Source of the DNA: Malacoraja senta
Lineage: Eukaryota
Length of the DNA: 64,000 bases
Direction: 5' to 3'
NCBI GenBank assembly: GCA_038087875.1
Contig: CM075990.1
Coordinates: forward strand, 4,466,001 to 4,530,000
Shown here: positions 37,901 through 40,900 of the stretch, one piece after another
Layout of the letters: each line of letters starts with the position of its first letter
How positions within the stretch are numbered: position 1 is the first letter of the stretch
Notes under the pieces: generated by a model
Seen by the model: only the letters and a program-made list of their open reading frames with translations
Told to the model about the DNA's origin: nothing
Database searches by the model: none
Made by a program: the position numbers and the translations under genes

Positions 37901-40900
37901 TGCTGAAAAAAAAGTAGCGGAATTGTAGACTCACTGACAAAATTTAATTATGTAAATATGAACTTGAATTGCCTCGGCATAGATGGCTATGGGCCAAGTG
38001 ATGGAAGCTGGGATTACTATGGATGGTGTCCACTGGTTGGTGTGGACATGGGCCAAAAGGTCAGTTTGCATGCTGTTTAATGACTCTAATCCCAGCATAA
38101 CTAGGCTCAGAAAAGAACACTGCATCGAGTGCAGAGCTCAATGACAAACTTGCCACACTCCAGTGTTTTTCATTGAGTGCAAATAACTTTGTTCTGTTCG
38201 TTTCTAATTTAACATAATTTTCCTTTTTTATTCAACAATATTTCTTCATCACAATGTGGAAGCTTATATTTTGTTTAGTTTATTGTCACGTGTACCGAGG
38301 TACAGTGAAAAGCGTTTTGTTGCATGCAAACCAGTCAGCGGAAAGACTATACATGATTACATTCGAGCCATCCACAGGGTACAGATACATGATACTGGGA
38401 ATAACGTTTAGTGCAAGACAAAGTCCAATAATGACCGATTAAATATAGTCCAAGGGTCTCCATTGAGGTTGATAGTAGCTCAGTAGTTGATAGTAGCTCT
38501 CCAGTTGTGGATAGGATTTATTCATGAACATGGTAACATATTGCATAAGGAGTCGTGCCAATCTTTATATTTACCATTTGATTTTTCACAGGATTTATTG
38601 CTGCAGACATTGAAGGCAAAGGTTCTTCGACCTGGCTGTACCTGATTACAGATTACCATGAGAATGGCTCGCTGTATGACTACCTGAAGTGCACAGTGCT
38701 CGATACCAAAGCCCTACTGAAGTTGGCTTACTCTGCCGCTAGCGGTCTCTGTCACCTCCACACAGAAATCTACGGTACACAAGGCAAGCCTGCCATTGCA
38801 CACCGTGACTTAAAGAGCAAAAATATCCTGGTGAAAAAGAATGGGACCTGCAGTATTGCTGACCTCGGCCTAACTGTAAAATTCAACAGGTAATGAATAA
38901 CTTCCTGACTCTGAAAACACATCAATTTTTTTAAATCAGACTCTATAACGTCGAGGACTGGGTTTGAGTGATGTTGTAATACTTTAAATGGAGAAAAATA
39001 TACAAAACAAATGAACAATTCTGAGCAGCAAATGAAGAATTATAAAATCGTTCACACCATAGCTTTTAAATATGGGGACGCCCCAGTTAGAGATGGCCTA
39101 ACTTATGGAAACTCTGACTTGATGTAAATCCTCCCATACATTTTTAAAACATCTTTCCAGATAGTAATAATAAAATGTTTTGTGGTATTCTTTTACAACT
39201 GGATGCAGTATTAATTTCACTAGTTTAATTATGAGCAGTGTTAGGGTGAATATTTGATAAAATGAAAGAATTAAGGGCCTGTCCTACTTGGGCGATCTAA
39301 TCCGCGAGTTCTGGCGAGTTTGCCCTCGACTCATACTCGCAGCATAGTCGACTCGAGGTCCTAGGAGGTCTTTGTAACTCTCCTTCATGCTCGAGAGAAG
39401 TCCCTATGTACTCGAGGCCTCAGCTAGGTCGCGGTGTATTTTTCAACATGTTGAAAAATGCCCGCGAGTAAAAAAAGGTCCCCATGGAAAAAAATCGATA
39501 CTTTTTTTACTCGTAGGTTTAGTCGTAGTAGGTCGGCATGTTAGTCGTAGGTAATCGAGGGTAGTCGAAGGTGATTGAAGGTAGTCGTAGATAGTCTTCA
39601 TCATAGTCGAAGGGAGGTCGAAGGAGGTAGTCTTCACTCTCCACTATTTGGTGTCCAATTTTCTCCGAAGTTAGTCGTAGCTAGTCGAAGCTGGTCTTCA
39701 ACGTAGTCGAAGGAGATCGAAGGAGGTCTTCTACATAGTCGAAGGAGGTCTTCAACATGACATTTTTTCAAACTCTCCTAAACCCTTCTAAACTCGCCAA
39801 AGGGACAGCCCCTTTAATAGCAAGTGTATGTGGAGTGGCACAGTATGGATAGTTATAGGAAACAGATGTTTCTGCATTCAACTGTCCATTCAGTGGGGTA
39901 CGTTGGATTCTTGTGCATCTCATTGGAATGCGGTCAACCCCAAGTTTTATCAGTTGCATTAATGTACAAGTTCCAAAGATGTTTCTAATGCGTACAGGTT
40001 TGTAGGTTAATTGGCTTGGTATACGTGTAAATTGTCCCTAGTGTGTGATAATGTGTGGGGGTCGTTGGTCGGTGTGGGCCGAAAGGCCTGTTTCCACTCT
40101 GCATCTCTAAACTAAAGTTATTGCTATAATAGTTTTTTTTCCTTTGGTCTTGCTGCCGACAAGCCTACCTGAAAATTAGCCCAGCAAGGCTTCAATTGAA
40201 TTATCATTAATCTATTTCCAATTTCATGTGCCCACTATTCTGATACAAAATTTATCATAAACAAATCCTTATCCTTTTTGGATTAACTTTTGGCCCATGG
40301 TTATTGAACTGTGGGCATCTGTTCTAGGTTGGTTAGGTTTAATCTGTTTATGGGTTTTTTTTTTTTAAATCTATGGATGTACGGAAACTTAATTATTTCT
40401 TCTATGTAAAGCACTTTGGTTTCAACACGAGTTGATTTAAACGTACTATATAAATAAAATTTACTTACTTATGTATTAGTGGTTCTTGAGAGTCGAGAGA
40501 GAAGAGCATGGACTTAAAAATAGAGCCAGACCAGTGGGGAGTTGTCTGGAAGCACATTAACACAGTTGCTGATAGAAACAAGAACTTTCCCCTAAAAACT
40601 AATGACTAAAACAACCGAAAATCTAAAAACTGATAGGTCTTTGTAGAAACAAGGAACGGCAGATACTGGTTTATTTTTTTTAAAATACACTATATTGCGT
40701 AACTCAGCGGGTCAGGCAGCATCTCGGGATAACATGCATTCACGACGTTTTGGGTTGGGACCCTTCTTCAGGGTCCTCGCTTGAAATGTCACCTATTCAT
40801 ATTCTCCAGAGATGCTGCCTGACCCACTGAGTTTCTCCAGCACTTTGTGTCTGGCTAGATCTTTGTTTGTTAAGACAATTGAGAAATATTAAACCGACCA

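What the first reader, a model, noticed from the sequence alone, without database searches (positions are those of the whole stretch)
38606..38638. BMPR1A with a rewritten L45 Smad-specificity loop
Seen: the exon reads [17 protein letters not shown]. Established: the beta4-beta5 L45 loop sets R-Smad choice and is DIKGTGSWTQL in ALK3/ALK6, DNKDNGTWTQL in ALK4/5/7 and DMTSR(N/H)SSTQL in ALK1/2. Here four residues differ from ALK3 (K>E, T>K, W>S, Q>W), including a charge reversal and an ALK1/2-like SST, while the frame, splice sites, GS box and catalytic motifs are intact. Inference: a lineage-specific receptor with altered Smad docking or signalling output.
Basis: partly seen in the sequence, partly recalled or inferred. 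Interest (0 to 1): 0.8.

Follow-up and report, generated by a model that had tools for sequence, protein, structure and literature searches.

The report
Cartilaginous-fish BMP receptor, altered docking loop
The gene for the BMP receptor BMPR1A is intact here, and its altered Smad-docking loop is shared by all 14 shark, ray and chimaera species checked; the receptor likely still signals through Smad1/5 but is predicted to be tuned differently from ours.

Summary
It is not an assembly error and not species-specific. All 17 cartilaginous-fish BMPR1A records that cover the loop (14 named species, chimaera included) carry E297, K299, S302, W304; none of 117 other ALK3/6 hits has E297, K299 or W304. 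Related species show the same loop in DNA contigs and in spliced contigs. The neighbouring beta3-alphaC loop also changed (F264P, T265S, T266A). The kinase evolved in a burst on the cartilaginous-fish stem and then nearly froze. This genome's BMPR1B and SMAD1 are canonical, so SMAD1 did not co-vary. Best reading: still a Smad1/5 receptor, with its Smad-facing surface shifted partly toward ALK1/2 and predicted to be less sensitive to Smad6 (residue map recalled, not read). No function was tested.

The parts
38606..38638 (+). L45 loop codons, [11 protein letters not shown] (BMPR1A 295-305; K297E, T299K, W302S, Q304W)
38592..38889 (+). Kinase exon with L45 loop, hinge, HRDLKSKN and DLG; also lineage-fixed T325V and A384T
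   Evidence: spliced to the previous exon in contigs of two related organisms
36682..36874 (+). Kinase N-lobe exon: P-loop, VAVK, beta3-alphaC loop with F264P/T265S/T266A, and N287S
33602..33740 (+). Juxtamembrane and GS-box exon ([13 protein letters not shown]), unchanged
30503..30602 (+). Transmembrane exon
29093..29192 (+). Third ectodomain exon (cysteine box)
19032..19134 (+). Second ectodomain exon; lineage-fixed S106A
16785..16923 (+). First ectodomain exon; lineage-fixed P68A and D69T. The signal-peptide exon lies about 7.2 kb before the window (L044, ATG at 2795)
42416..42591 (+). Kinase exon: activation segment, APE; lineage-fixed I426L, and A441S
45641..45771 (+). Kinase C-lobe exon
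52268..52393 (+). Last coding exon with stop codon
57183..57644 (-). Neighbouring gene, last exon with C1q domain; multimerin-2-like (name and human BMPR1A-MMRN2 adjacency recalled)
   Evidence: long upstream exon in L046

Best explanation
This is the intact BMPR1A (ALK3) orthologue of a skate-like cartilaginous fish, with an L45 loop and a neighbouring beta3-alphaC loop that differ in all cartilaginous fishes sampled; it likely still phosphorylates Smad1/5/9, and its Smad-facing surface is predicted to be retuned partly toward the ALK1/2 type, with weaker Smad6 feedback. Shown: intact gene, orthology, class-wide fixation, long stem branch then near-stasis, canonical BMPR1B and SMAD1 in the same genome. 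Inferred: BMP binding and GS-box phosphorylation work as usual because those parts are kept; Asp295 still locks the GS helix and contacts Smad; the new loop places a basic residue at 299 and Ser at 302 as ALK1/2 do (Arg and Ser), and Ser at 265 as ALK1/2 do, so Smad1/5 remains the substrate; loss of Phe264 and Thr265 would weaken Smad6 binding and so change the strength or duration of signalling.
For: Fixation: 17 of 17 loop-covering cartilaginous-fish records have E297/K299/S302/W304 and P264/S265/A266; among 117 other ALK3/6 hits E297 0, K299 0, W304 0, P264 0 of 105. Orthology: clade support 100 inside BMPR1A (support 100), 38 sequences, 306 columns. Tempo: stem branch 0.069 substitutions per site against about 0.011-0.02 from the crown node to the tips; chimaera-skate 10 of 306 differences, coelacanth-skate 32; shark BMPR1B is not accelerated (16 of 306 to goose). 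Concentration: 3 of 9 lineage-fixed differences fall in the 9 conserved loop sites out of 253, permutation p 0.0024. ALK1/2 likeness: human ALK2 DMTSRHSSTQL, this genome's ALK2-like DMTSRNSSTQL, ALK1/2 IFSSRDE; stingrays and sawfish add S298 (5 of 17), making the loop 6 of 11 identical to either class. Two very different loops both serve Smad1/5/8 (PMC6953019, passages). The invariant Asp is kept; its ALK2 equivalent D269 binds R202/R206 (PMC3481300, parts 2-3 of 5 read) and its ALK1 equivalent D263 is needed for signalling (PMC10419700, passages). Smad6 binds BMPR1-specific residues near the ATP site (PMC8054026, passage). That these are R238, F264, T265 and A269 is recalled from Goto et al. 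2007, which was not held.
Against: No functional datum exists for this receptor. The Smad6 residue map is recalled, and 2 of its 4 positions (R238, A269) are unchanged. The loop was picked because it looked odd, so p 0.0024 is not a blind test; the unselected scan (best 41-residue window, 5 of 9) gave p 0.08. Only 3 of 12 intracellular lineage changes point toward ALK1/2; E297, W304 and P264 match neither class (P264 matches type II receptors ACVR2A/2B). Ray-finned fish BMPR1A tolerate other loop changes (N297 8, A/T301 32, non-W302 35 of 117). Peptide binding suggests Smad2 binds the phospho-GS segment more tightly than the L45 loop (PMC8567202, passages), so loop changes may matter less than assumed.
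Confidence: 0.5

Rival explanations
1. Compensated, near-neutral change: the Lys and the Trp each moved two residues along (297 to 299, 302 to 304), the surface was rebuilt by drift and compensation, and the receptor signals like any ALK3.
For: The i to i+2 shifts are in the sequence. Other vertebrate BMPR1A vary in this loop and at 265/266. Human BMPR1A and zebrafish bmpr1a work in the same pathway; parts of the ALK2 L45 loop are disordered in the crystal (PMC3481300). SMAD1 is unchanged (47 of 47 and 85 of 86 residues identical to human chain 1khu).
Against: K299, E297 and W304 are fixed in 17 of 17 records from chimaera to rays, at sites nearly invariant elsewhere including lamprey and all BMPR1B sampled; burst-then-stasis and concentration in one surface fit a selected change better than drift.
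Confidence: 0.26
2. The receptor has lost most direct R-Smad docking and acts as a ligand-capturing or trans-activating partner (or a non-Smad kinase), leaving Smad1/5 phosphorylation to ACVR1-type receptors or BMPR1B.
For: In zebrafish gastrulae kinase-dead Bmpr1a restores BMP signalling while Acvr1l kinase is essential (PMC8054026, passages). This genome keeps a canonical BMPR1B and an ALK2-like receptor. SMAD1 did not co-vary with the new loop.
Against: GS box and all catalytic motifs are intact and the kinase is under strong constraint (10 of 306 differences chimaera-skate; 8 of 8 listed exon differences synonymous). A freed loop would keep drifting; this one is fixed but for G/S298.
Confidence: 0.17
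3. The loop has switched or broadened specificity to Smad2/3.
For: Only that the L45 loop is the reported specificity determinant (PMC6953019) and that it changed.
Against: None of the four changes introduces the ALK5 residues of ADNKDNGT (peptide given in PMC8567202); I296, G298, G300 and S301 of the BMP type are kept in this genome; the ectodomain remains BMPR1A-like.
Confidence: 0.04
4. Assembly error, pseudogene or a divergent extra paralogue.
For: No same-organism contig could be laid; searches of this genome missed several expected pathway genes, so a second copy cannot be excluded by them alone.
Against: Identical loop in 14 named species, annotated there as BMPR1A, and in four related organisms' contigs; open frame over all exons; tree position; multimerin-like neighbour.
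Confidence: 0.01

Closest known systems
BMPR1A 'type IAa' predicted proteins of sharks, rays and chimaera (e.g. Leucoraja erinacea XP_055517875, Callorhinchus milii XP_007897509)
   Same: Same gene; the loop exon is 99 of 99 residues identical to the Leucoraja protein.
   Different: A few ectodomain and C-lobe residues; the databases hold the sequence with an automatic name and no comment seen on the loop.
BMPR1A/ALK3 and BMPR1B/ALK6 of other vertebrates
   Same: Domain order, GS box, catalytic motifs, D295, I296, G300, T303, L305; tree position inside BMPR1A.
   Different: K297E, T299K, W302S, Q304W; F264P, T265S, T266A; N287S, T325V, A384T, I426L, A441S; ectodomain P68A, D69T, S106A.
ALK1/ALK2 (ACVRL1, ACVR1, ACVR1L)
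   Same: Basic residue at 299, Ser at 301-302, Ser at 265; Ser at 298 in stingrays and sawfish.
   Different: Loop only 5 of 11 identical here; ectodomain and the rest of the kinase are ALK3-type (exon 86% to own BMPR1B, 67% to own ALK2-like gene).
Ray-finned fish Bmpr1aa/ab
   Same: Also depart from the canonical loop; S302 in Bmpr1aa-type proteins; S265 in bichir and sturgeon.
   Different: Different substitutions (N297, A/T301, F/S302, R266); they keep T299, Q304 and F264.

Membership tests
BMPR1A/ALK3 orthologue | Activin-receptor ectodomain, transmembrane helix, GS box, Ser/Thr kinase in one open frame | tested here: met
   Pfam PF01064, PF08515, PF00069 on P0121; all exons mapped in the window and L044
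BMPR1A/ALK3 orthologue | Groups with BMPR1A, not BMPR1B, in a kinase tree | tested here: met
   Support 100; separate canonical BMPR1B in the genome
BMPR1A/ALK3 orthologue | Tail-to-tail with multimerin-2 | tested here: inconclusive
   C1q-domain gene on the opposite strand; its name and the human gene order are recalled
ALK3/6 signalling class | Canonical L45 loop DIKGTGSWTQL | tested here: not met
   7 of 11 identical
ALK3/6 signalling class | Intact catalytic and regulatory residues (VAVK, alphaC Glu, HRD, DLG, activation-loop Arg, beta4 Asp) | tested here: met
ALK3/6 signalling class | Phosphorylates Smad1/5/9 | not testable with these tools
   needs cell assay
ALK3/6 signalling class | Smad6-sensitivity residues R238, F264, T265, A269 (recalled from Goto et al. 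2007) | tested here: inconclusive
   2 of 4 kept in sequence; source paper not held, sensitivity not assayed
ALK1/2 class | ALK1/2 loop and overall kinase identity | tested here: not met
   5 of 11 in the loop, 67% in the exon
ALK4/5/7 class (Smad2/3) | ALK5-type loop residues (ADNKDNGT) | tested here: not met

The most novel reading that the evidence does not exclude
The ancestor of all cartilaginous fishes rewired its main BMP2/4 receptor at both ends (ligand-contact loop and Smad-facing N-lobe), giving a receptor with altered R-Smad output and escape from Smad6; this change in BMPR1A signalling contributed to how these fishes handle cartilage and mineralisation, a role that gene-count surveys dismissed.
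Probability: 0.12. Interest if true: 0.85.

Novelty: new variant of a known kind. Interest (0 to 1): 0.52.

Why it matters
Reviews state that the L45 loop is identical in ALK3 and ALK6 (PMC6953019). A whole vertebrate class breaks that rule with a fixed alternative, which is a natural experiment on how type I receptors choose R-Smads and I-Smads, an interface mapped mostly by mutation (PMC8567202). It also matters for skeleton evolution: a stingray genome paper judged BMP receptors unlikely to explain cartilage versus bone from gene presence alone (PMC10787021, passages); sequence-level change in BMPR1A was outside that test. Simple swaps and reporter assays can settle the functional question. 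If the swaps are silent, the finding is a modest note on loop tolerance.

Tried and rejected
Species-specific novelty: rejected. Gene conversion from the ALK2-like paralogue: no sign; loop nucleotides match BMPR1B at 19 of 33 and the ALK2-like gene at 15 of 33, though an ancient event could be erased. SMAD co-variation: SMAD1 canonical; SMAD5 and SMAD9 were not found, but those searches also missed SMAD7 and found only 4 type I receptor genes, so the blanks say nothing. SMAD6 MH2: L3 loop unchanged; five positions differ in 4 of 4 cartilaginous-fish sequences against 115 others, too few and unmapped to call co-evolution. AlphaFold model of P0121 from a 32-row alignment failed (mean pLDDT 38.6) and was not used. 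No complex was predicted: a published ColabFold study saw no change with ACVRL1 variants (PMC10419700), and one job cannot compare two receptors. The remote HMMER search was busy on 7 tries, so invertebrate loop diversity was not surveyed. No RNA holder was listed as on record; the spliced contigs come from runs guessed to be RNA. Atlas search gave generic kinases. Literature: 10 searches found no description of this loop; targeted cartilaginous fishes (4 and 5 papers listed). Subscription papers are missing from the library; Chen 1998, Feng and Derynck 1997, Goto 2007, Kamiya 2010 and Miyazawa and Miyazono 2017 were not held. No supplements were read; Table S13 of PMC10787021 may list the receptors. 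Two look-ups in earlier scan notes gave nothing on this gene.

Full report
Observation. Window 38606-38638 encodes [11 protein letters not shown]. The exon's best solved relative is human BMPR1B, which reads DIKGTGSWTQL there.

The gene. tblastn with the little-skate protein P0121 maps ten coding exons in the window; the signal-peptide exon lies about 7.2 kb before it. Exon lengths add up to 523 codons plus stop, with GT-AG ends. GS box, P-loop, VAVK, alphaC Glu, [11 protein letters not shown] and APE are intact. A C1q-domain gene lies tail-to-tail on the other strand, as multimerin-2 does beside human BMPR1A (recalled). The genome has a separate BMPR1B with the canonical loop, an ALK2-like gene with DMTSRNSSTQL and an ALK5-like gene. 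The organism is a cartilaginous fish close to skates by protein identity.

Not an error. DNA contigs of two related organisms carry the exon with no listed difference in the loop. Contigs from two runs guessed to be RNA join exon 36682-36874 directly to the loop exon (records 9 and 24). All 8 listed exon differences are synonymous. The two runs of the best-matching organism gave no laid contig, so same-organism confirmation is missing.

How far it reaches. The exon search (best 120 of 372 hits listed) found two 90% clusters with the variant loop. Of their 55 members 19 were listed; 2 are fragments without the loop; the other 17 (14 named species of skates, stingrays, manta rays, sawfish, electric ray, sharks and Callorhinchus, plus 2 unnamed records) all have E297, K299, S302 and W304; 12 have G298 and 5 have S298. 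Among 117 other hits (P0001, a malformed model, left out) none has E297, K299 or W304; 10 have S302. These 117 are top-scoring cluster representatives, not a random sample. The loop therefore predates the chimaera-elasmobranch split (about 400 million years, recalled). It is also true that BMPR1A loops vary elsewhere: ray-finned fishes show DIKGTGAFTQL, DINGTGASTQL and similar, and some amphibians and lizards have H304.

More than the loop changed. Column comparison shows further class-fixed changes: F264P, T265S, T266A in the beta3-alphaC loop, N287S, T325V, A384T (A in 117 of 117 others), I426L, A441S, and in the ectodomain P68A, D69T and S106A. P68/D69 follow His66, the His43 of the beta1-beta2 loop that governs GDF5 discrimination (PMC4575486, passages); S106 lies in the Gly82-Asp89 ligand-binding helix named there (offset of 23 residues recalled). 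In a kinase tree of 38 sequences the cartilaginous-fish proteins form one clade (support 100) inside BMPR1A (100), on a stem of 0.069 substitutions per site, against about 0.011-0.02 from crown node to tips. In the curated set, 9 class-fixed differences fall on 253 otherwise conserved sites, against 0 for lobe-finned and 1 for ray-finned BMPR1A; 3 of the 9 lie in the loop (p 0.0024, loop chosen after the fact; unselected window scan p 0.08). No codon model was run, so selection is inferred from this pattern only.

Partners. This genome's SMAD1 matches human SMAD1 at 47 of 47 residues in the L3/C-terminal exon and 85 of 86 in the preceding one. SMAD5 and SMAD9 could not be found, but the searches missed other expected genes as well. 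SMAD6 keeps its L3 loop and has a handful of class-specific MH2 changes of unknown meaning.

Mechanism. [quoted passage not shown] The beta4 Asp binds GS-helix arginines in ALK2 (PMC3481300, parts 2-3) and is needed for ALK1 signalling (PMC10419700, passages); it is kept here. Seen in sequence: none of the changes brings in ALK5 residues; K299 and S302 match the Arg and Ser of ALK1/2, S265 matches ALK1/2, and S298 of stingrays does too; P264 matches the type II kinases ACVR2A/2B; E297 and W304 match no class, and both Lys and Trp have in effect moved two residues along. Inferred: the receptor remains a Smad1/5/9 kinase with a rebuilt docking face. Smad6 binds BMPR1-specific residues near the ATP site (PMC8054026, passage); I recall these as R238, F264, T265 and A269 (Goto et al. 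2007, not held). Two of the four are changed, which predicts weaker Smad6 feedback. I put this reading at 0.5, silent compensation at 0.26, a scaffold role like kinase-dead Bmpr1a in zebrafish gastrulae (PMC8054026) at 0.17, and a Smad2/3 switch at 0.04.

Novelty. The proteins are in NCBI and UniRef under automatic names. Ten paper searches found no description of the loop or of the 264-266 change; the library lacks most subscription papers. Of two comparative papers, PMC10787021 (passages) counted BMP receptor genes and dismissed them for the cartilage-bone question, and PMC5979292 (passages) built trees without comment seen on this site. Other papers opened: 10.1101/170837, PMC10376983, PMC2150897, PMC9681871 (passages), PMC9950781 (abstract and outline); none bears directly.

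Verdict. A real, ancient, class-wide variant of a known receptor, less strange than a one-species rewrite would be and partly paralleled in bony fishes, but unexplained, apparently undescribed and directly testable. New variant of a known kind; interest 0.52.

Noticed in passing
L038, L042, L043, L039 (G000 contigs C51, C4097, C4131, C2757): Several near-identical exons of a divergent type II TGF-beta-family receptor kinase on small contigs (best PDB hits ACVR2A and BMPR2); L039 looks broken. They look AMHR2-like to me (recalled, not tested); PMC5979292 reported no AMHR2 in elephant shark or whale shark.
   Followed up: partly
window 16785-16923 and 19032-19134: Class-fixed ectodomain changes P68A, D69T and S106A at or beside ligand-contact elements; could alter BMP/GDF5 preference.
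   Followed up: partly
L006:1492-1998 (-): SMAD6 MH2 has substitutions shared by 4 of 4 cartilaginous-fish sequences and rare or absent in 115 others (N>I, Q>H, N>A, H>Q, L>M).
   Followed up: partly
P0010, P0085, P0101, P0051 and other ray-finned fish BMPR1A: Independent drift of the same surface (R266, S265 in bichir and sturgeon, F/S302, N297), partly toward ALK1/2 residues, while BMPR1B stays almost fixed.
   Followed up: partly
L003-L005, L020, L021 (G000:C1 99.3-99.5 Mb): An ALK2-like gene lies next to an ALK5-like gene; it may be the ACVR1L paralogue that PMC5979292 reports in sharks.
   Followed up: no
window 60313-63914 (-), 47569-49887 (-), 46350-47390, 41140-41620: LINE-type retroelement frames (one of 1002 aa), a transposase-like fragment and a long TA-rich microsatellite in or near the gene.
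   Followed up: no
G000 whole-genome searches: Only four type I receptor genes and one BMP R-Smad were recovered; SMAD5, SMAD9 and SMAD7 were not. Incomplete assembly or withheld stretches are likelier than loss, but this was not resolved.
   Followed up: partly
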